In this document: in pieces, positions 1-64,000 of the stretch
Position numbering within the stretch: position 1 is the stretch's first letter
Layout: every line of letters starts with the position of its first letter
Source of the DNA: a virus
Lineage: Duplodnaviria; Heunggongvirae; Uroviricota; Caudoviricetes
IMG/VR virus record: IMGVR_UViG_3300029611_000001
Location: 25,067 to 89,066 of that record
Strand: one strand, 5' to 3'
DNA: 64,000 nt
The notes under the pieces: model-generated
What the model saw: only the letters and a program-made list of their open reading frames with translations
Database searches by the model: none
What the model was told of the DNA's origin: nothing
Made by a program: the position numbers and the translations under genes

Positions 1-3000
1 GTATCTTCTAATACTGAATCTATAGAAAGTGATCGTTTTTATCAGACAGAGGGTAATAATGTCAGTTTGGATGAAAAAATAAATGAACTCCTGAACAATG
101 GTGAAATAGATTCAGATGAGGCATTTACAATGAAAGTATTTGGTCATTTAAATGATGGTATAACTCAGAAACCGAAAGAGGATATATTGTCTGATTTTGA
201 TTATGAGTTGGCTATGGAAGATCTTTTGTCTGCACCTATAGAGGTTAGAGAACGTATAGTAGACAAGATATATACAGGTAATCAAGATCTTTTATCTCCA
301 AGAGAGAAGGAGATATATGATAAATACAAGCAGGATATTGATGATTACATATCATTTCTTGGAGACAGTCCGGCTAAGATGATAAAAGATTTATCAGATA
401 AAGTTAGGAGACTTACTGAGCCTCGATCTGTGTATGAGGATAATAAAGCTATTATTGATATGGCTAAATCCAATTTGGAACCAGATCAAAGGAAGGAACT
501 TGATGATGCTATTTCTTTGTATGTTGATATAATGAACAGACGAGATAAAGGGGAGAAAGTTGACGAAGATAAGCTTGCCGATTCGGTATTTACCATAGAA
601 GATCTTGGCCAGGTTGGAAACATCACGGATCTCCTTCCTTATATCGAACAGAACAGGATTATTGATAAAGGTCGTATTTCCGAATCTACGTTAAGTAATT
701 TTGGGGAGGATGATGCTAATATAGATTCTCTTGTAAATGAATTAGACGAATCTGATAATACGCCGGGAGCCAATATAGATAGCGCCCAGAATCCAGAGAC
801 GTTGATGGTAAGAAGAATCTCCAACGACGGCAATGAAAGGTATGAAATTGCCGGTCTTAGAGCCGATAAATTTATATCTTCTATAAAATCATTGGTTCCT
901 ATTCAAATAAGCTCTGAAACGAACGCTAATGGCACTAAAAGGTATTCTCTTAACATAGGTGGGGAAACGGCTACTATAATTGAACTTCCTTATCATGCGA
1001 GATGGTCTATAGACAAAGAATCGGCTCGTGTTCTTAATCGCTACACAGATGTGTCTATTCAGGACGTGGGTAATTCCTATTCTTTGGTTTATAAGCGTCT
1101 TGATTCAGATGAGTTGGTTCCGTACAGAACGGGTGTCGGATTCGGAGATAATGAGGTAGATAAAATAGATCAGGAAGCATTATCTTCTTTGAAAAAAGGA
1201 GATAAGGTTAATCTCGAAATAGATGTAAATGATACCTATAATCAGTCTCTTTTTGCCGAATACAATGATGCTGTTCAGTCCGGCGATAAAAAAAGAATAG
1301 AATCTGCTGAGAATAAACTGGTGTCCAATATGGTTATCAAGGTCATGAGTGGAAACAGATTCGTTTCTGTTGTAAAAGCTGACACAGGAGGCATAGATGG
1401 TATAAGTAAGATAAGAAGAACGGCTTTTAACAAGTGGAAGAAGGACGCCGGCCGGTCGGCTACCATCGGCGTCGGCACGCATGTTGTTGCCCAGACCCTT
1501 CCCGGAAGACCGGTGTTTAACATGAAGGTGAACGGTCAAGGATATGGCCAGGTAGAAAATCTCCCTATTACCGAAAAAGGTGCTGAAAAAGTATCTGATG
1601 TCGGATATGTATTAAATGGCAAAGTCGTGCTTAAGAACGGATCTAAATACACAGGCTTCCCATTTGCTTATTCTATATTAAATGACAAGGGGAATAATTA
1701 CAAAAATGTAAGAGTTCCGGTAGTTGTCATCAAAGGTAAAAACGGTTTTAATTATCTTTTCCCAGTTAGCCTGCGTTCTGTGGAATCAGAGGAAGGGCGG
1801 AAATGGATGTCTTTTATAGATATGCTGCTTGAATCCGGTGATTCTGAATTGCTACAGATGGGTCAAGATGATATACAAGATCTTAATGCGTATCTAACCA
1901 AGTTAGGCCTTGATCCGGCTTCGTATCAAGTATCGTATTTGAATCCTATTTCAGGGCTTAGAAAAGCTCGTGAGGCTATAGAAAAATTATCTACGGTTCC
2001 TGATGTTGTTAAATGGGTAGAAGATGAAAGCAGGAATGTGAAAGACATTGTGACGTCTGAAGTAGAATCTGGAATAGATTTCGAAGGTGAGATGTTTGTC
2101 GCTCCTAAGATCAGGATTCAGTTTGGTAAATCATCTTCCAGACCTAAATCACTTATAGAGGATGATCTTCCTTTCTCTGATGAGGGTAAGACCGTTACTT
2201 CTAAAGAATACGTGGATGTTTATGAAGAGGAAATGCCAGAGGAAGGGGCTGCCCGGGAGACTCAGACGGCGCCATTAGCTCAGCCGGCTCCTGCGGCACA
2301 AGCTGCGCAGTCTTTACCTGGCAAGAAGCGTACCTCCAGGAAAAACTTCTCTCTTATGTTAAACGAAATAGAATCTCATATAGAAAAAGAAGGATTGCCG
2401 TCTTATGCTAATATTTTTGATTTTATAGCAAGGAAGATTGTAGGAGGTGATTTGAGGTTTCTTCGTGAGAGAGGTAATCCTAAAAGCCTTAAGGAAGAAA
2501 TGGGATTAGAACCTAAAGGAACAGTAGGTGATAAAATATCCACTCCTTCCAGTAAAGGTGGTAAGACTTTAGAAGAATATGTTTCTTGGCTTCGTTCTCA
2601 AACAGATCAGGTGGTGGTTGATTATGTTGGGCCAAGATCTGACGAACAAATTATATCAGAGTTGAAAAACTTTTTGAAATATATTAATTTTGTTCCAAGC
2701 AAGGCTTTGAATTATTCTCTTAGAGTCAATGGCATGGATACCCTAAAAGAATATGGCACAAAAGAGGAAGTAGAAAAAATGGAATCTGATATCAATAGTT
2801 TGGTTTCTAAAGTTTTGCCTACGGTGGATAATAAAACTGTAGAAGATGTTTCTACTGCAATAAAATCAAACAACTTGCCTGCCATATGGGAGCCCGTGGA
2901 AAGCCTTGATATGACAAACGAGGAAAAAATAGAGTTTTTGAATAACGTAGCAGATTTCCTTAGCGGCATACCAGAGTATGATGCTGTCGTGGAGTCTATA

Positions 3001-10812: not shown

Positions 10813-11040
10813 ATGGAAAATAAGGAAGATTACGTTGGTTACGAAGATCAAGAACTGTGTAACCGGTATTACAAAGAGGCTGACGCCATGAGACAAAAGC
10901 AGGACTGGTCTCGGCTTAGGGCTGTCCCTGCTCCGGCCAAGGGAACGCCATCGCCCGGCTGGGGACAGCTTGGACGTGGAAATGATGTCCGTGTTAAGTA
11001 TGTTAGCATCAATTCAGGATTAGGAGGGGACAGGTTATGA
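10813..11040 (+). CDS. Hypothetical protein (75 aa)
   Basis: ORF with overlapping stop/start with the next gene. Confidence 0.45.
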   Translation: MENKEDYVGYEDQELCNRYYKEADAMRQKQDWSRLRAVPAPAKGTPSPGWGQLGRGNDVRVKYVSINSGLGGDRL

Positions 11041-11252
11041 CCGTAGAAGAATTAGCTAATAAAAGATACGGTGGCGAATTTGTTTTCATGCTTGGTCATT
11101 TGGAAGGTGTAACAAGATTCGTTTTTGAATGTTTCGATCCCAGACCTGATCACGAAGGTAAAAATACTTATATGGTTTCCTATTTTGATAAGCGCATCCG
11201 TAGAAGAGACGTAGTAGATGTGCCGTGTTATATGAATATTTTGCCAAAATAA
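11037..11252 (+). CDS. Hypothetical protein (71 aa)
   Basis: ORF, ATGA overlap. Confidence 0.45.
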   Translation: MTVEELANKRYGGEFVFMLGHLEGVTRFVFECFDPRPDHEGKNTYMVSYFDKRIRRRDVVDVPCYMNILPK

Positions 11253-58986: not shown

Positions 58987-59220
58987 TTACAATACTTTTG
59001 TTCCGCAATTATTATATCTTCCGTACTCTTTTTTCGTATCATTCAAGATTTCAAAAACCATCTTCTTGTGATCTTCGTTTGGTAACCTATCCTTAACAGC
59101 CGATATTACGCCCGCTATAGACGTAAAGCCTGAATCTGTTATTGAACACAGCAACACACCTCTGTCGGCTCCGGTGCTTATTGCTGACGCCTTTATAATA
59201 TCATTCTTGTATATTCTCAT
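58987..59220 (-). CDS. Hypothetical protein (77 aa)
   Basis: ORF. Confidence 0.4.
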   Translation of the reverse strand: MRIYKNDIIKASAISTGADRGVLLCSITDSGFTSIAGVISAVKDRLPNEDHKKMVFEILNDTKKEYGRYNNCGTKVL

Positions 59221-59398
59221 AATCTTTCGTTTTATTATCTACAAACTTATCTATATCGTCTCTTATTCTTTTTAGCACTCCGGCTATAATTGTCGGCATT
59301 TCTCCTCCGGTACGGTTCAGAGTTTCTATCACCCCGTCAATCTTACCCATTTGACGCCATAAGAAATTGGCGTCTTTCGCATTAAATTCCCCCATCAT
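59201..59398 (-). CDS. Hypothetical protein (65 aa)
   Basis: ORF. Confidence 0.4.
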   Translation of the reverse strand: MMGEFNAKDANFLWRQMGKIDGVIETLNRTGGEMPTIIAGVLKRIRDDIDKFVDNKTKDYENIQE

Positions 59399-59475
59399 GT
59401 CTTATTTTACAGTAAACAACTTGCTTTTTTAAGCACCAGTCTTGCGATTCTGAGAGTGAACACCGTCCTGTGTTG

Positions 59476-59631
59476 TTAAAAAAATATACAATCTTTGCAG
59501 AACATAACAGGCTCTTCGTCGTCACTAACTACTTTGACCTCATACTCTATGCCATACAATTTTAATCTAAATACATCCCCTGCTTCTTTAGAAGACAAAT
59601 CCATGTTCGGACCGAATGTTATTACTTCCAT
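59476..59631 (-). CDS. Small hypothetical protein (51 aa, below ORF-track cutoff)
   Basis: ATG at 59629-31 (minus) to TAA at 59476-78. Confidence 0.3.
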   Translation of the reverse strand: MEVITFGPNMDLSSKEAGDVFRLKLYGIEYEVKVVSDDEEPVMFCKDCIFF

Positions 59632-59649
59632 ATAATTATGTTTTATTGT

Positions 59650-59745
59650 TTGTGAGATGCCCAGAATCGAACCAGGACCGGCACATACGCACCGGCACGC
59701 CGCGTCATCCCTCTATGATACAGAAATAGGCATGTCTATCCTCAC
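59650..59745 (-). tRNA. tRNA-like element: canonical T-arm (GGTTCGATTCT) and acceptor 3' strand; 5' half not resolvable by hand (possible tRNA gene, intron-containing tRNA or tRNA 3' fragment)
   Basis: Plus strand TGTGAGATGCCCAGAATCGAACCAGG is the reverse complement of a tRNA T-loop/acceptor end; sits in an intergenic gap; 8-bp perfect hairpin GGCATGTC...GACATGCC upstream. Confidence 0.4.
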
Positions 59746-59804
59746 GAACCGACATGCCAAAACCCAAAACTTAATTTGATGAATAAAATAGATTAACAAA
59801 AATA

Positions 59805-60119
59805 CTATTCTAATTCTTTTATAATATCTTTCACAATATTCAGCCTCACCTCCTTCGTTTCTGGACTAAGACAACCAAACCACCCATAAAACGTTCTTGT
59901 TTCCTCTGGTTCTGTGGCCATACTTATCTTCTCCTCCAATTCCGGGAAATATATTCTCACCATTTCGTCTGAACGAAACTCATATATATTTTTATGTGTT
60001 TTGAGATACATAAACACTACATTTCTTAACGCAACACATATGTATTCCCCATCCTCTAACCTATCAATCATCTCATATACCTTTTTCCATATGAATAATC
60101 GCTCTTCTTTTGTAAACAT
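59805..60119 (-). CDS. Hypothetical protein (104 aa)
   Basis: ORF. Confidence 0.5.
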   Translation of the reverse strand: MFTKEERLFIWKKVYEMIDRLEDGEYICVALRNVVFMYLKTHKNIYEFRSDEMVRIYFPELEEKISMATEPEETRTFYGWFGCLSPETKEVRLNIVKDIIKELE

Positions 60120-60133
60120 ATCCTTCTTTATTT

Positions 60134-60475
60134 TTATGGTATTATTTGACTGTATGCAGACTTTTCCATGTACACAACACTATGTTCCTGTCCAAGTATT
60201 TTCTTTGCTGCTTCTTTCTTTATCGCGCAATATCTCCCTGTACGATACGGATTCTTTTGATCTGATCCATCCTCGACTTCGATAATAAAACAACCTCCGT
60301 CATCTATTATCTTTTTGCAATTGTCACATATTTCTCCCGTGCATATATGATGCGGCGCCTGCCCTTTGATGTTATTCCCTAATAAAGCAATCCCCATCTC
60401 TTCGCCACATATCATGCAGACTTCTATAGACGGATTCAATCCGTGTTCTGGATGTAATGTAATACCATCTTTCAT
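60134..60475 (-). CDS. Zinc-ribbon protein (113 aa)
   Basis: CMICGEEM...CTGEICDNC. Confidence 0.5.
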   Translation of the reverse strand: MKDGITLHPEHGLNPSIEVCMICGEEMGIALLGNNIKGQAPHHICTGEICDNCKKIIDDGGCFIIEVEDGSDQKNPYRTGRYCAIKKEAAKKILGQEHSVVYMEKSAYSQIIP

Positions 60476-60876
60476 TTTCTTTCCTCCTTCATTAATTCTA
60501 TTATAAACTTTTTATCTTGTTCCCACAATGGCAGCCCTTCTTTTACTGTGTATGCCACTGTTTCCCTCTCTCCTATTAATCGCACGGCAATCTCTCTTGC
60601 TTTCAAGTCATCCTCCTCATGCGATTTATTTATTAAATCATAGGCACATGATTCCACCTTTTGCCTTTCGATTATTATCGAACCCATTAACTCGCTTATA
60701 TACGATCCTAAAAACGATAAGACATTAATAGCTTTCCCAATATCATTTGAAATAGCACTTGCTAAATACATCTTATCCATATACTCCGGCAAAGCCTCGT
60801 ATGCCGTTTCTATGTTTTTATACTGATTTTCGTTTACCTCCCTTTTAATCAGTTCTTCAAATTCTTCTTTTAACAT
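60472..60876 (-). CDS. Hypothetical protein (134 aa)
   Basis: ORF. Confidence 0.5.
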   Translation of the reverse strand: MLKEEFEELIKREVNENQYKNIETAYEALPEYMDKMYLASAISNDIGKAINVLSFLGSYISELMGSIIIERQKVESCAYDLINKSHEEDDLKAREIAVRLIGERETVAYTVKEGLPLWEQDKKFIIELMKEERK

Positions 60877-60898
60877 GTTCTTCCCTATTTTAATGTTG

Positions 60899-60990
60899 TG
60901 TGAGATCGCCGGAATCGAACCAGCCTACCGCACCATGAATCCCATAAAGCAAATGCTCCGATCTTCGCAGACGGGAGCATTCTGTCTAAA
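60899..60990 (-). tRNA. tRNA-like element with canonical T-arm (GGTTCGATTCC) and acceptor 3' strand; close paralog of the 59650 element
   Basis: Plus strand TGTGAGATCGCCGGAATCGAACCAGC; a possible acceptor partner TGGGATT lies only about 25 nt upstream, which would give a minihelix-like fold. Confidence 0.4.
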
Positions 60991-61459
60991 GCATAAGAAA
61001 ATTAATGAAGAAATTTTTCTCACTTACGCCATAGCATCTAAAATAGCTATCAGCACTATTTCTATGACAAACATAATAAAAAATATCTTAAATGCCTTTT
61101 TCATATCGCTATCTCCTCCTTCTTCTTTATGTTTATAGTTCTTCTATATAGGCCCTCTCCGGTCGTAATATTCTGTGCGCTTACACTAATACGAACACAG
61201 TCCTTTAACCAACTCGGTCTGTGTTTAAGCAATTCTTTAGCACTCGTTCTTAATATCATCTCTTTGGCATCTGATACCGGCATAGACCTGTTGCTTATTA
61301 GTCTACTACTTTTCGAACCTGTAGAAGATACCCAATTTATCCAAATATAATGTATTGTTCTTTCCATCTTTTTTCTTTTTACGTTCCACAATAAACTGTC
61401 CTGGCTCTGCTCCGACCTACGTTCCACCTACAACCGCAGGCCTTAGCCCAAGGCGCCGC

Positions 61460-61720
61460 CTACTCCCCCTCTATGGCAGCCTGTTCGTACCTACAAAGCC
61501 AGTCTCCATCTACACAACTATCACTACGCGATAATAAACATTTATCCTTATAACAATCATAAAAAATACACCTATCACAACTGTAATCCTTAACGTCTAC
61601 ACAGCTAACTACCTTAGCATATACTATACCATCACTGCCTTCTATTCCTTTCACCCCAAAAATAGAACCTTCTACCTCCTTACTCAAATCTAAGTCAGGC
61701 GCAAAATCATATACGTTCAT
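61460..61720 (-). CDS. Cys-rich hypothetical protein (86 aa)
   Basis: ORF; CDRCIFYDCYKDKC. Confidence 0.45.
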   Translation of the reverse strand: MNVYDFAPDLDLSKEVEGSIFGVKGIEGSDGIVYAKVVSCVDVKDYSCDRCIFYDCYKDKCLLSRSDSCVDGDWLCRYEQAAIEGE

Positions 61721-61760
61721 GTTGTTTATATTTTAATTGTTAAACATTTCACTTACTACC

Positions 61761-61935
61761 AGCCTATGGAATGATGTTTTAAAACGCTATCATACTTTAT
61801 TTTGTTGGAAAACCTACAGAATACTGTTTTAAAACGCTGTAAGTCTTAATTTTGTTGGAAAACCTACAGAATACTGTTTTAAAACGCTGTAAGTCTTAAT
61901 TTTGTTGGAAGAGAGTCTTAATTTTGTTGGAAGAG
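61761..61935. repeat. Tandem 50-bp iterons (about 3.5 copies; two perfect copies of AACCTACAGAATACTGTTTTAAAACGCTGTAAGTCTTAATTTTGTTGGAA, plus a 22-bp sub-repeat)
   Basis: Perfect copies at 61811-61860 and 61861-61910; degenerate copy at 61761-61810. Confidence 0.85.
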
Positions 61936-62140
61936 AGTGCCCTACCCCTCCCTCTCTCCAACTCCCGCTAATCCTCCGGCTTTCCGCATAGAACCCACGC
62001 CCTACCGCCTCACTACCGGCATACGGAGAGCGCTACAAGCTTATACTCTGGCATGAAGTGTGGGGTGTTTAGAGATAATATCATTCCATAGAGAGAATAG
62101 AGAGTCTTCAGCCCACGCCCTACCGCCTGCTCCTCCTATC
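61936..62140. ncRNA. GC-rich structured element with internal direct repeat CCCACGCCCTACCGCC (x2); candidate small RNA or origin structure
   Basis: Sharp local GC rise in an AT-rich non-coding region; repeats at about 61992 and 62112; ATCATTCCATAG at 62080 is the inverted partner of CTATGGAATGAT at 61764. Confidence 0.3.
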
Positions 62141-62657
62141 AAGATAGATATTCAGACCTATAATCAAAGCCAGAAACAAAAAGCAAAAAACCATCACGAT
62201 ATTATACTGATCTGGTCCGTACTCTAACATAGAACGGATACCAACCGATAAAAAATACAGGTCAGATACTAATAAAAACCACCACATAAAATAAAAAATT
62301 TACAATAAGTATGTCCGAAAATACGGGTATTATAAAACATAACTAATTGATAATCAAGCATACCTCATTTTTAAGAAAAATACAATAAGCCTGATTTTCA
62401 ATCTATAGAGATGAAAAAGGCGGCATCCGACACCCTATTTTGGGTCAGAAAACCGCCTCAAGTTTCGTTTTAGACCAATTTTAACGACATGATATAGACA
62501 AAATACCGGCATTATATCCAAACTATCCTATTTTAGTTTCGTTTTAGACCAATATGGCACATATCCGCCGTTCACTCTCAGAATACCTACCCGTAAATAG
62601 AAAGAGTAGGATACGAAAATAGGGCTGCTCCGACGTTCGGAACAACCCTACTCCTAT

Positions 62658-62864
62658 TTAAATGCTGTTTATGTTTTCCTTGACGTATGTTCGTGATGTA
62701 TGAACTTTACGCTTGCATTTGTCCTTTCCTGTATCGGCATGATACGCTTCTTTGAGATCACGATACAACATAAATTCACGATACGCTCTTTTCCGCTTTT
62801 CTTTAGCTTCTTTCCTGGACAGACCGCGAACGTCTACCATGTGAGATTTAAATTTCCTTTCCAT
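62658..62864 (-). CDS. Basic hypothetical protein (68 aa)
   Basis: ORF. Confidence 0.45.
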   Translation of the reverse strand: MERKFKSHMVDVRGLSRKEAKEKRKRAYREFMLYRDLKEAYHADTGKDKCKRKVHTSRTYVKENINSI

Positions 62865-62886
62865 TTTCTTTATGCTTTAATTATGA

Positions 62887-63057
62887 TTAACCCCAGCGGT
62901 TAAGTGCTTCAATATAGAAACCTTCCGCCTCTTTGTACTCACTTTCGCTTAGTGCTTCAACCGTCTCGATATAGTTACGCAATGTTATTTTTACGCAACT
63001 GTTTTTAGATTTATTGAACGCTTCAGTTAAAGCGTTGATCATTGCTTTCTTTCCCAT
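62887..63057 (-). CDS. Small hypothetical protein (start trimmed to MGKKAM)
   Basis: ORF 62887-63108 trimmed so it does not overlap the tRNA-like motif. Confidence 0.4.
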   Translation of the reverse strand: MGKKAMINALTEAFNKSKNSCVKITLRNYIETVEALSESEYKEAEGFYIEALNRWG

Positions 63058-63082
63058 GTTATTATATTGTTTATAATTTAGA

Positions 63083-63165
63083 GGTTGCTCCGGAATCGAA
63101 CCGAACACGCATTCCTATTCTATACGAATTTTATGCTACAACCAACAGCCCGTAATTAGTACGTA
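63083..63165 (-). tRNA. tRNA-like element with canonical T-arm (GGTTCGATTCC); possibly the 3' portion of a tRNA whose 5' part is separated by the structured region 63160-63640
   Basis: Plus strand AGGTTGCTCCGGAATCGAACCGAAC; a partial acceptor partner GGTTGTA lies about 55 nt upstream. Confidence 0.35.
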
Positions 63166-63640
63166 GTTCTTGTGTACAGGCCCGTACTATGTTGTTATTA
63201 TATTTTCCGTCTGCTACACAACTTAGCCACAAATAAAGGCGATTGTGTCCTTGCGTTTTGATACGGCACGTCCCTACATGGTAGGCTACATGCTTGTACC
63301 CTGTAATTTAATCTACAGCCTTGTTCTATTTTCCGTGTAAGCAAGTAAGACACGTTTCGATCTGGAGATAAACCGCGTACAAAGGTATGTCTTCCAAACT
63401 GTACCAACATACCTAACATGAACCACACCTATTCGGGTGATTCATGCAGTAATACCAGCCCTTTAATTGCCAACGGCAAGGGCAAAGGTATATCTATCTC
63501 CAATATGTAAAATAACTCTTTGCTTGTCAGCTTCGGTCTAAAGCATACGCGGGACGTGCACCCACTGACAACGGCATACAGGCGCGTTTAACGGTACGCG
63601 TCAAACCTTTGGAGAGCTTAACTGCGCTCTCCGTGCCTTG

Positions 63641-63964
63641 TTACTGCTGGTTGCTTTCATGTGCGAGGTATTCACTTACACACTTTGCGATGGTACGGAT
63701 TGAGTAAGAAGCGATTCGTGTCGCTACATAAGTAGCTCTATACTCGTCGGTTTCACGAGTGAGCCACTTTGCGCTGTTCTTACCTTCCAAAGGTTCGGGT
63801 GAAGCAAACCCAAAAGGTTTATACTCTTCACCGTAGGCGATATTTTTCACCTCTTTATTCTCGATACCTTTTTCCTTATTAACCTTACCATCTTTGTATA
63901 TTTTAGAATACAAGGTAAATTTTACGAAGGTATCGCCAACCTTTGGTAACATTTGGCTACACAC
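63641..63964 (-). CDS. Hypothetical protein (107 aa)
   Basis: ORF. Confidence 0.5.
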   Translation of the reverse strand: MCSQMLPKVGDTFVKFTLYSKIYKDGKVNKEKGIENKEVKNIAYGEEYKPFGFASPEPLEGKNSAKWLTRETDEYRATYVATRIASYSIRTIAKCVSEYLAHESNQQ

Positions 63965-64000
63965 GGCTACCAGGCGTTTTTTATCTTTAGCGAGAGATGC

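What the first reader, a model, noticed from the sequence alone, without database searches (positions are those of the whole stretch)
59650..63165. Three paralogous tRNA-like T-arm plus acceptor motifs that cannot be completed into canonical cloverleaves
Three intergenic sites on the minus strand carry perfect tRNA T-loops (GGTTCGATTCY) with adjacent acceptor 3' strands. Two share TGTGAGAT-[GC]CC-RGAATCGAACCAG. Hand-folding failed to find matching 5' acceptor strands at the right distance. They may be genuine phage tRNAs (possibly suppressor or intron-containing), tRNA-derived minihelices, or 3' tRNA fragments of attP type. The third is followed by about 480 bp of GC-richer, hairpin-rich sequence (63160-63640, for example ggagagc-ttaact-gcgctctcc). 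That could be a group I intron or a structured ncRNA splitting a tRNA.
Basis: seen in the sequence. Interest (0 to 1): 0.55.

Follow-up and report, generated by a model that had tools for sequence, protein, structure and literature searches.

The report
tRNA-like minihelices punctuating phage genes
Three short tRNA look-alikes (acceptor stem plus T arm only) sit just upstream of genes in a human-gut phage. One is fused to a previously undescribed ~460-base structured RNA, and they most likely act as cut-here signals for the host's tRNA-processing enzymes.

Summary
GGTTCGATTC occurs exactly three times in 64 kb, always on the minus strand (0.09 expected). ARAGORN and Rfam call no tRNA. Each site does have a 5' acceptor strand, only closer than in a tRNA. 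The units are 45-64 nt: a 6-7 bp acceptor stem stacked on a 5 bp T stem, a GG-containing linker (with or without a dispensable hairpin) in place of the D and anticodon arms, an invariant unpaired C, and no CCA.

All three are conserved in more than 100 related gut-phage contigs (closest record: csAssE-Sib). Substitutions in the stems preserve pairing. Each lies 20-23 nt upstream of a start codon and downstream of a long GNRA-capped hairpin. The phage's true tRNA cluster has the same layout. Gene gain and loss in relatives happens right after these units.

The roughly 480-nt stretch 5' of site 3 is non-coding and is a covariation-supported structured RNA (141 pairs) with no Rfam family.

Best reading: phage "t-elements", signals for RNase P and RNase Z that release the upstream RNA and the downstream mRNA. 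The structure is shown; the cleavage is inferred. The genuine-tRNA, split-tRNA/intron and attP readings are not supported.

The parts
59652..59712 (-). TLE1, a 61-nt tRNA-like element. Layout: AGGGAUG (1:72 is an A.A mismatch; pairs 2-7 form) - AC - GCGGCGU linker with an invariant GG - dispensable hairpin 59696-59677 - T arm CCUGG/UUCGAUU/CUGGG (59676-59660) - CAUCUCA - unpaired C.
59729..59758 (-). hp1, a 13-bp hairpin with a GUGA tetraloop. It is followed by UAUUUCUGUAUC, a terminator-like tail, and ends 16 nt before TLE1.
59632..59651 (-). 20-nt A/U-rich leader between TLE1 and the ATG at 59631. Its 5' part, AAACAAUAAAAC, is conserved together with TLE1. Downstream of it relatives carry different genes.
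60900..60944 (-). TLE2, a 45-nt tRNA-like element. Layout: UGGGAUU - CA - UGGUGCGGUAG linker - T arm GCUGG/UUCGAUU/CCGGC (60924-60908) - GAUCUCA - unpaired C. The acceptor stem has 7 bp, including G3.U70.
60951..60982 (-). hp2, a 13-pair hairpin with one C.C mismatch and a GCGA tetraloop. Three of its pairs show changes on both sides. It ends 6 nt before TLE2.
60877..60899 (-). 23-nt leader between TLE2 and the ATG at 60876. ACAACAUUAAAA is conserved; downstream genes differ among relatives.
63081..63144 (-). TLE3, a 64-nt tRNA-like element. Layout: UGGUUGU (1:72 is U.U, or U-A in some relatives) - A - hairpin 63136-63109 - GUG - T arm UUCGG/UUCGAUU/CCGGA (63105-63089) - GCAACCU - unpaired C.
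63058..63080 (-). 23-nt A/U-rich leader between TLE3 and the ATG at 63057.
63145..63608 (-). Non-coding structured RNA of about 460 nt that abuts TLE3. In the tested structure it accounts for 20 of the 24 helices (122 of the 141 pairs); the other four helices belong to TLE3. It includes long-range closing helices, and it has no Rfam family.
63611..63632 (-). Optional hairpin GGAGAGC-GCAGUUAA-GCUCUCC just after the stop codon of the upstream gene. It is replaced by an A run in about half of the relatives, so it is not part of the conserved RNA core.

Best explanation
The three sites are paralogous tRNA-like elements (TLE1-3) read from the minus strand, the same strand as all neighbouring genes.

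Structure (shown): each is an acceptor/T-arm minihelix. A 6-7 bp acceptor-type stem stacks directly on a 5 bp T stem that carries the canonical UUCGAUU loop. A short linker with an invariant GG, with or without one dispensable hairpin, replaces the D and anticodon arms. An invariant unpaired C sits at the discriminator position, and no CCA is encoded.

Function (inferred): they are not decoding tRNAs. They most likely work as cis-acting processing signals, like the t-elements of plant mitochondria. Host RNase P cuts at the 5' edge. A tRNA 3' endonuclease such as RNase Z, which handles CCA-less substrates, cuts after the unpaired C. Cleavage would free the upstream RNA, which then ends in the long GNRA hairpin (for TLE3, in the ~460-nt structured RNA). 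It would also release the downstream mRNA with a defined 20-23 nt A/U-rich leader.

Because the unit 'hairpin + TLE + leader' is self-contained, it also serves as a portable junction at which accessory genes are gained, lost and recombined.
For: Structure:
- The proposed stems keep 98.9-100% of cells paired, against 27-51% when the 3' partners are slid. Many changes are G-U/A-U/G-C exchanges.
- Changes on both sides occur in the TLE3 T stem (C-G to U-A), in the TLE2 T stem (G-C to A-U) and in the TLE3 mid hairpin.
- In L061, three acceptor positions of TLE2 changed and all still pair.
- Paralogs have different acceptor sequences that all pair.
- G.U pairs make the fold specific to the minus strand.
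- In 73 loci collected through the Pnk protein, so independently of the T-loop, UUCGAUU is 35/35, 37/37 and 44/47.
- The proposed folds lie within 0-1.7 kcal/mol of the MFE.

Not tRNAs.

Context:
- The leader is 20-23 nt.
- The true tRNA-Cys of the relative lies 17 nt before the next ATG, and the true cluster is preceded by a GUGA-capped hairpin.
- The phage tRNAs encode no CCA.
- Order and strand are conserved in relatives: tRNAs ... Pnk ... big RNA + TLE3 ... TLE2 ... TLE1.
- In different genomes each TLE is followed at 20-30 nt by different genes. In two loci TLE2 is joined to the gene that follows TLE1 in the window.
- L014 lost the upstream hairpin but kept the TLE1 core.

Precedent:
- t-elements found through the same GGTTCRANYCC motif direct RNase P/Z cleavage of plant mitochondrial mRNAs (PMC1920247).
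- RNase P, RNase Z and CCA-adding enzymes recognise the acceptor/T-arm elbow (PMC4810234).
Against: - There is no transcript-end or cleavage data, so the enzymatic step is pure inference.
- Thermodynamic signals are weak (z-scores -0.3, 0.0 and -1.4). The MFE of TLE2 prefers a linker/3'-strand pairing, although that pairing is not conserved in relatives.
- Position 1:72 is unpaired in TLE1 and TLE3. In TLE3 a helix abuts the acceptor 5' strand. Either could hinder RNase P.
- The sequences are closely related (81-97% identity), so most support comes from one-sided changes.
- The hairpins look like intrinsic terminators. If they are efficient, there would be little read-through to process.
- A trans-acting role for the released minihelix cannot be excluded. 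TLE1 and TLE2 carry G3.U70, and the closest relative encodes a Ro60 (Rsr) homologue.
Confidence: 0.5

Rival explanations
1. The TLEs are genes for trans-acting tRNA-mimic small RNAs. Candidate roles are decoys or sponges for tRNA-binding host factors or anti-phage tRNA-targeting toxins, partners of the phage Ro60 (Rsr) protein, or CCA-tailed and aminoacylated minihelices (TLE1 and TLE2 carry the alanine determinant G3.U70). Their position next to genes would then be incidental.
For: - The T-loop, a linker GG and the unpaired C are invariant, which is more than a cleavage signal strictly needs.
- G3.U70 is present in 44/46 TLE1 and 47/48 TLE2 variants.
- The closest relative encodes Rsr next to a weak YrlA-like hit, and also Pnk plus a phosphodiesterase.
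Against: - TLE3 has G3-C70.
- G3.U70 is replaced in some variants.
- There is no YrlA or tmRNA match for any TLE.
- rsr is about 75 kb away in csAssE-Sib.
- The fixed 20-30 nt spacing to whichever gene follows points to a cis role.
- The two roles are not mutually exclusive.
Confidence: 0.2
2. The TLEs are uncleaved cis-regulatory 5'-UTR structures. A tRNA-binding protein, or the ribosome, would bind them to control translation or read-through of the upstream terminator-like hairpin.
For: - Each TLE lies at a constant short distance upstream of a start codon and directly after a terminator-like GNRA hairpin.
- GUGAG(R) motifs upstream are complementary to the acceptor 3' strand (U)CUCAC, which would allow alternative pairing.
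Against: - No regulator was identified.
- The genes downstream are unrelated and interchangeable, which argues against gene-specific feedback.
- The GUGAGA motif is missing in some TLE2 orthologs.
- A full acceptor/T-arm mimic is exactly what the processing enzymes recognise.
Confidence: 0.12
3. The conserved motif acts at the DNA level, as a phage promoter or protein-binding site or as a recombination sequence. The RNA fold would be coincidental.
For: - Mosaic junctions coincide with the elements, and a TLE2/TLE1 hybrid exists.
- A near-consensus Bacteroides -7 box lies upstream of hp1.
Against: - Pair-preserving substitutions include G.U pairs, which would be A.C mismatches on the other strand.
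- The sequence matches the universal T-arm and has the tRNA 7+5 helix geometry.
- Promoter consensus hits are not enriched, and none is shared by the three sites.
Confidence: 0.08
4. They are genuine but unusual tRNAs (suppressor, intron-containing, or split by the ~460-nt RNA acting as an intron), or 3' tRNA fragments marking attP sites.
For: - The T-loops and acceptor 3' strands are perfect.
- RNAalifold can pair AGGUU at 63608-63604 with the TLE3 3' strand.
Against: - ARAGORN and Rfam find nothing here, yet they find the phage's real tRNAs at 43-68 bits.
- None has a 7-nt anticodon loop. TLE2 is 45 nt. The TLE1 mid hairpin is deleted in L040 and L072.
- There is no intron family hit.
- The change at position 72 in L034 and L064 creates the local U1-A72 pair and breaks the distal pairing.
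- No host tRNA gene carries the 3' end of TLE1 or TLE2.
Confidence: 0.03

Closest known systems
t-elements of plant mitochondria (wheat, Arabidopsis, Brassica Ogura CMS locus)
   Same: They are non-cloverleaf tRNA-like units defined by a GGTTCRANYCC T arm plus an acceptor-like stem. They sit in transcribed intergenic regions next to mRNA 5' or 3' ends, and RNase P and RNase Z use them to make those ends (PMC1920247).
   Different: This case is in a bacteriophage of gut bacteria. The elements are much more reduced (45-64 nt, no D or anticodon arm). They are paired with a GNRA hairpin at a fixed 20-23 nt from the start codon, and they sit at gene-shuffling junctions. Cleavage has not been shown.
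MALAT1/MEN-beta with mascRNA (tRNA-like 3'-end processing of a long ncRNA)
   Same: A long structured non-coding RNA is directly followed by a small tRNA-like module. Cleavage of that module by RNase P would create the long RNA's 3' end (Wilusz 2008, cited in PMC4810234). This is my own comparison.
   Different: The known case is eukaryotic and nuclear, and mascRNA is a fuller cloverleaf. No weak Rfam mascRNA match falls on a TLE; the only one falls on a true tRNA. Here a protein-coding gene follows the module.
GOLLD and ROOL large phage/prophage RNAs
   Same: They are large (over 450 nt), multi-helix, covariation-supported RNAs encoded by phages and associated with tRNAs. GOLLD sometimes has tRNAs covalently linked (PMC12286853, PMC5737381).
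   Different: There is no match to either Rfam model, nor to any of the 4227 families. The RNA is known only from one clade of gut phages. The partner is a tRNA-like minihelix, not a tRNA. Oligomerisation is unknown.
PeSL cassettes of T4-type phages (promoter-early stem-loop mobile regulatory cassettes)
   Same: They are repeated intergenic cassettes containing a stem-loop. They flank small accessory genes and mediate modular gain, loss and replacement of genes (PMC2839356, PMC4122927).
   Different: PeSLs are promoter plus terminator. Here the conserved core is a tRNA-like RNA fold plus a leader, and a promoter could not be demonstrated.
tRNA-like domain of tmRNA, and YrlA (bacterial Y RNA)
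   Same: Both have an acceptor/T-arm mimic without an anticodon arm. TLE1 and TLE2 carry G3.U70, as tmRNA does.
   Different: ARAGORN finds no tmRNA. There are no YrlA or tmRNA hits beyond a 17-nt T arm. TLE3 lacks G3.U70. There is no tag reading frame, and no rsr gene is adjacent.

Membership tests
canonical tRNA | Cloverleaf with a D arm and an anticodon arm (7-nt loop), detected by ARAGORN or the Rfam tRNA model | tested here: not met
   ARAGORN finds 0 genes. There is no RF00005 hit even at E<=10. Orthologs in 19 loci are never called, while the true phage tRNAs score 43-68 bits.
canonical tRNA | 7-bp acceptor stem stacked on a 5-bp T stem with the GGUUCRANYC loop | tested here: met
   Position 1:72 is mismatched in TLE1 and TLE3.
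t-elements (tRNA-like processing signals) | T-arm consensus plus an acceptor-like stem in a non-cloverleaf unit, in a co-oriented intergenic region | tested here: met
t-elements (tRNA-like processing signals) | Transcript ends coincide with the element borders; cleavage by RNase P and RNase Z | not testable with these tools
   No RNA-end or enzymatic data are available. Indirect support only: the phage tRNAs are CCA-less and show the same spacing to the next ATG.
tmRNA | Detected by ARAGORN or the Rfam tmRNA models; tag ORF; G3.U70 | tested here: not met
   One search finds none. One search gives only a 17-nt T-arm match (9.8 bits). G3.U70 is present in TLE1 and TLE2 but not in TLE3.
YrlA / bacterial Y RNA | Match to the Rfam YrlA model and adjacency to an rsr gene | tested here: not met
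   There is no YrlA hit in 59000-64000. The relative's only YrlA-like hit (28.5 bits, below the gathering score of 69) lies next to rsr, about 75 kb away.
group I intron (for 63145-63608) | Match to an intron model; interrupts a gene whose exons rejoin | tested here: not met
   Searches give no hit. TLE3 is complete without the distal strand.
GOLLD / ROOL (for 63145-63608) | Match to the family covariance model | tested here: not met
GOLLD / ROOL (for 63145-63608) | Large, non-coding, multi-helix RNA with covariation support; phage-encoded and linked to tRNAs | tested here: met
   No conserved ORF and frame-shifting indels. 141 pairs, 22 of them with changes on both sides, against 1-6 in slid controls. 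Immediately followed by TLE3 in 46 of 47 Pnk-anchored loci in which the RNA was detected (the exception is L133).
attP / host-tRNA 3' fragment | Identity to the 3' end of a host tRNA gene | tested here: not met
   The pattern for TLE1 and TLE2 hits 4 places in 185,579 genomes. None is a tRNA gene, and one is a copy of the phage element itself. TLE3 was not scanned.
PeSL-like mobile regulatory cassette | Repeated intergenic cassette at the borders of variable accessory genes | tested here: met
PeSL-like mobile regulatory cassette | Contains an early promoter | tested here: inconclusive
   Consensus scans are not enriched, and the three sites share no common promoter.

The most novel reading that the evidence does not exclude
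This gut-phage clade uses a 'tRNA punctuation' system. Reduced tRNA-like minihelices, each paired with a GNRA hairpin and a short leader, recruit host RNase P and RNase Z to cut accessory-gene transcripts. They also act as portable adaptors for gene shuffling. One of them makes the 3' end of a previously undescribed ~460-nt ornate RNA, which would be a phage counterpart of MALAT1-mascRNA and a new companion to GOLLD and ROOL.
Probability: 0.35. Interest if true: 0.8.

Novelty: new variant of a known kind. Interest (0 to 1): 0.62.

Why it matters
- If the TLEs are cleaved, this would be, to my knowledge, the first case of t-element or tRNA-punctuation-style mRNA processing in a bacteriophage. 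It would show how a phage borrows the host's tRNA-maturation enzymes to define mRNA ends in Bacteroidota-type hosts, where leaders are short and A/U-rich.
- It offers a mechanism for plug-and-play exchange of accessory genes.
- The attached ~460-nt RNA adds a candidate to the very short list of large structured phage RNAs of unknown function. Its link to a tRNA-like module bears on why GOLLD and ROOL associate with tRNAs.
- Practically, GenBank record OR575929.1 annotates 'hypothetical proteins' over TLE1 and over the structured RNA. These are probably spurious.

Tried and rejected
- A joint covariance model of the three TLE families was abandoned. MAFFT misaligned the 5' acceptor strands because the middle parts differ in length.
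- An all-against-all column covariation scan of the large RNA for pseudoknots gave 761 'covarying' pairs. It is dominated by phylogeny and unusable.
- Promoter scans (sigma-70 type and Bacteroides TTTG/TAnnTTTG) were not enriched and gave no shared promoter.
- A literature search for csAssE found nothing relevant. The supplement of the 10,006-csRNA virus survey is not held, so overlap with that catalogue could not be checked. One 2026 preprint was not held.
- The flanking proteins have no Pfam family and only two PHROGs of unknown function.
- A distant BLAST of the large RNA against 50,697 phage records found only csAssE-Sib.
- The neighbouring conserved non-coding stretch 61721-62657 was tested in the same way. 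It showed no excess of compensatory pairs (6 against 2-9), so it serves as a negative control.
- Derivation of the TLEs from the phage's own tRNA-Gln or tRNA-Met was considered. No sequence similarity was seen.

Full report
OBSERVATION

The motif GGTTCGATTC occurs exactly three times in the 64-kb window, all on the minus strand, at 59664-59673, 60912-60921 and 63093-63102. The expected count is 0.09, and none of 100 shuffles reached three. All local genes are on the minus strand, and the three sites are intergenic.

ARAGORN finds no tRNA or tmRNA in the window. Rfam finds nothing at gathering score. At E<=10 it finds only a 17-nt T-arm match to a tmRNA model.

ANATOMY

Read on the minus strand, each site does have a 5' acceptor strand. 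It simply lies closer to the T arm than in a tRNA.

- TLE1 (59712-59652, 61 nt): AGGGAUG-AC-[linker + hairpin]-CCUGG UUCGAUU CUGGG-CAUCUCA-C.
- TLE2 (60944-60900, 45 nt): UGGGAUU-CA-UGGUGCGGUAG-GCUGG UUCGAUU CCGGC-GAUCUCA-C.
- TLE3 (63144-63081, 64 nt): UGGUUGU-A-[hairpin]-GUG-UUCGG UUCGAUU CCGGA-GCAACCU-C.

Each is therefore an acceptor/T-arm minihelix with the tRNA 7+5 geometry. Position 1:72 is mismatched in TLE1 and TLE3. A linker replaces the D and anticodon arms, an unpaired C sits at the discriminator position, and there is no CCA.

The proposed folds are at or within 1.7 kcal/mol of the MFE. Thermodynamic z-scores are unremarkable. The phage's real tRNAs also do not fold into clean cloverleaves by MFE.

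Each TLE lies 20, 23 and 23 nt upstream of an ATG. Each lies 16, 6 and 1 nt downstream of a long helix. Two of these helices are capped by GNRA tetraloops, GUGA and GCGA.

RELATIVES AND COVARIATION

The closest record is the uncultivated human-gut phage csAssE-Sib (OR575929.1, 151 kb), at 87-96% identity. That record annotates hypothetical-protein CDSs over TLE1 and over the region 5' of TLE3.

A pattern scan of IMG/VR returned at least 120 contigs of 80-155 kb carrying TLE1 and TLE2. Seventy-three further loci were collected through the nearby Pnk protein, so independently of the T-loop.

On 46, 48 and 25 distinct sequences, the proposed stems keep 98.9-100% of cells paired. When the 3' partners are slid, only 27-51% pair. 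Most variation is one-sided, through G-U. Changes on both sides occur in:
- the TLE3 T stem (C-G to U-A);
- the TLE3 mid hairpin;
- three pairs of the TLE2 upstream hairpin;
- the TLE2 T stem (G-C to A-U).

One ortholog (L061) changed three acceptor positions of TLE2, and all three still pair. The paralogs have different acceptor sequences that all pair. G2:C71, G53:C61 and the unpaired C are invariant in 58 of 58 distinct cores. In the T-loop-independent set, UUCGAUU is 35/35, 37/37 and 44/47.

The many G.U pairs make the fold specific to the minus strand, so it is an RNA feature. The TLE1 mid hairpin is deleted in L040 and L072, apparently between direct repeats, so it is dispensable. Each linker keeps an invariant GG. 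I infer that this may mimic the D-loop G18G19; that is not tested.

CONTEXT

The order in relatives is conserved, all on one strand: tRNA-Met, -Gln, -Arg, -Cys ... Pnk ... large RNA + TLE3 ... TLE2 ... TLE1.

The true tRNAs encode no CCA. The true tRNA-Cys lies 17 nt before the next ATG. The true cluster is preceded by a GUGA-capped hairpin with a U run, 6 nt before tRNA-Met. 'Hairpin - tRNA(-like) - about 20 nt - ATG' is therefore a shared layout.

Each TLE is followed at 20-30 nt by different genes in different genomes:
- TLE1: MEVITFGP, MMGEFNAK or MRIYKNDI.
- TLE2: MLKEEFEE, MKDGITLH or, in two loci, the gene that follows TLE1 in the window.
- TLE3: M[EG]KKAMIN or ME[KR]KFK...

A fourth cassette type, with the same hairpin apex CGUGAGGAUA as hp1, is present in 27 contigs. 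There it lies between homologues of window ~48.05 and ~49.17 kb; the window lacks it. The cassettes therefore mark junctions of gene gain and loss, reminiscent of the T4-type PeSL cassettes (PMC2839356).

Across the ~105 kb of csAssE-Sib fetched and the 64-kb window, a descriptor scan finds only the six tRNAs, the three TLEs and one YrlA-like T arm.

THE SEQUENCE 5' OF TLE3

Window 63608-63145 has no conserved reading frame. Frames and lengths differ among 42 orthologs, six orthologs have no ORF of 45 aa or more, and there are frame-shifting indels. Even so, it is 81-97% conserved and is present once in each of 97 loci.

RNAalifold predicts 155 pairs. I tested a version that uses the local TLE3 acceptor stem. 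It has 141 pairs in 24 helices, 99.3% of cells paired, and 22 pairs with changes on both sides. Shuffles give a mean of 10.9 and none of 500 reached 22; slid controls give 1-6.

The same procedure on the neighbouring conserved non-coding stretch 61721-62657 gives no excess, 6 against 2-9. That stretch is a useful negative control.

No Rfam family matches, including GOLLD, ROOL, introns and RNase P. This holds in the window and in the most divergent orthologs.

RNAalifold's alternative pairs AGGUU (63608-63604) with the TLE3 3' strand. That pairing is broken in the sequences where position 72 became A, whereas the same change creates the local U1-A72 pair. The local minihelix is therefore preferred, but a switch between the two cannot be excluded.

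It is absent from about half of the relatives, so it is not part of the core.

WHAT IT IS NOT

- attP or host-tRNA fragments. The pattern for the TLE1/TLE2 3' end occurs four times in 185,579 representative genomes. It is never in a tRNA gene, and one hit is a copy of the phage element itself.
- Genuine, suppressor, intron-containing or split tRNAs. There is no anticodon arm, TLE2 is 45 nt, there are no predictor hits, and there is no intron model hit.
- tmRNA or YrlA. There are no model hits.

MECHANISM

The structure is shown; the function is inferred. The acceptor/T-arm stack is what RNase P, RNase Z (for CCA-less precursors) and CCA-adding enzymes measure and bind (PMC4810234). In plant mitochondria, non-cloverleaf t-elements found through the same GGTTCRANYCC motif direct RNase P and RNase Z cleavage, and that cleavage makes mRNA 5' and 3' ends (PMC1920247).

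By analogy I propose three steps:
1. RNase P cuts 5' of each TLE. The upstream RNA is left ending in its hairpin. For TLE3 the upstream RNA is the ~460-nt structured RNA, as in MALAT1-mascRNA.
2. A 3' tRNA endonuclease cuts after the unpaired C.
3. The downstream mRNA is released with a uniform short A/U-rich leader.

This would insulate each accessory gene from its upstream context, and it would explain why genes are exchanged exactly there.

Unresolved points:
- Whether hp1 and hp2 are efficient terminators. The tail after hp1 resembles that of the clear terminator at 62654-62616.
- Where the promoters are.
- Whether the released minihelices have a trans function. TLE1 and TLE2 carry G3.U70, and the relative encodes Rsr next to a YrlA-like hit as well as Pnk.

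VERDICT

The elements are a new variant of a known kind (t-element-like tRNA mimics), here in a phage. They are coupled to a structured ~460-nt RNA that matches no described family. I am about 0.9 confident in the structural description and about 0.5 confident in the RNase P/Z processing role.

Noticed in passing
window 61721-62657 (tandem repeats at 61775-61938): A conserved non-coding stretch of about 900 nt lies between the TLE3 and TLE2 gene groups. It holds a 50-nt repeat (2.7 copies) and a 22-nt repeat (2.1 copies), and it is present in about 100 related loci. It shows no excess of compensatory pairs, so it is probably not a structured RNA. It may be an origin or iteron region, or a regulatory region.
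   Followed up: partly
window 62616-62654 (minus strand): A strong hairpin followed by UAUUUUCGUAUC lies right after the 68-aa gene. It looks like an intrinsic terminator ending the unit TLE3 / 56-aa gene / 68-aa gene. Its tail resembles the one after hp1.
   Followed up: partly
L001 3238-3396 and L002 556-843 (OR575929.1 148558..148716 and 556..843): GenBank CDSs annotated as 'hypothetical protein' overlie TLE1 and the ~460-nt structured RNA. No reading frame is conserved over the RNA, so these annotations are probably spurious.
   Followed up: partly
L201 16601-18725 (OR575929.1 about 72.6-74.7 kb; outside the window): The closest relative encodes a Ro60-related (Rsr) protein. It is preceded by tRNA-Tyr, tRNA-Lys and a sub-threshold YrlA (Y RNA-like) match (28.5 bits, E 0.006, gathering score 69). 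This looks like a phage Ro/Y-RNA module.
   Followed up: partly
L002 2615-4409 (about 1.2-3 kb beyond the window's end): A polynucleotide kinase/3'-phosphatase and an NrnA-like phosphodiesterase are encoded upstream on the same strand. These are RNA-repair-type enzymes near the tRNA-like elements.
   Followed up: no
L127 1027-1150 (minus strand): The true tRNA cluster of the relative is preceded by a perfect Bacteroides-type promoter (TTTG, 20 nt, TAACTTTG). A long GUGA-capped hairpin with U5 then ends 6 nt before tRNA-Met, so a terminator-like hairpin sits inside the pre-tRNA leader.
   Followed up: partly
L038 about 10880-11075, and 26 other viral contigs (L202-L227): A fourth paralogous cassette: a hairpin with the same CGUGAGGAUA apex as hp1, a TLE with acceptor UGGGACG/CGUCCCA and a 6-bp T stem, and a 32-nt leader. 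It lies between homologues of window ~48.05 and ~49.17 kb, and the window lacks it.
   Followed up: partly
window 59741-59746 (hp1 loop) and about 61021-61016 (upstream of hp2): GUGAG(R) motifs are complementary to the acceptor 3' strand plus the unpaired C, (U)CUCAC, of TLE1 and TLE2. This could allow an alternative pairing. The motif is missing in some TLE2 orthologs and remains unexplained.
   Followed up: partly
window 61024-61104 (minus strand): A 26-codon hydrophobic ORF (MKKAFKIFFIMFVIEIVLIAILDAMA) has a GGAGG upstream and lies just before hp2/TLE2. It is conserved at the DNA level in relatives.
   Followed up: no
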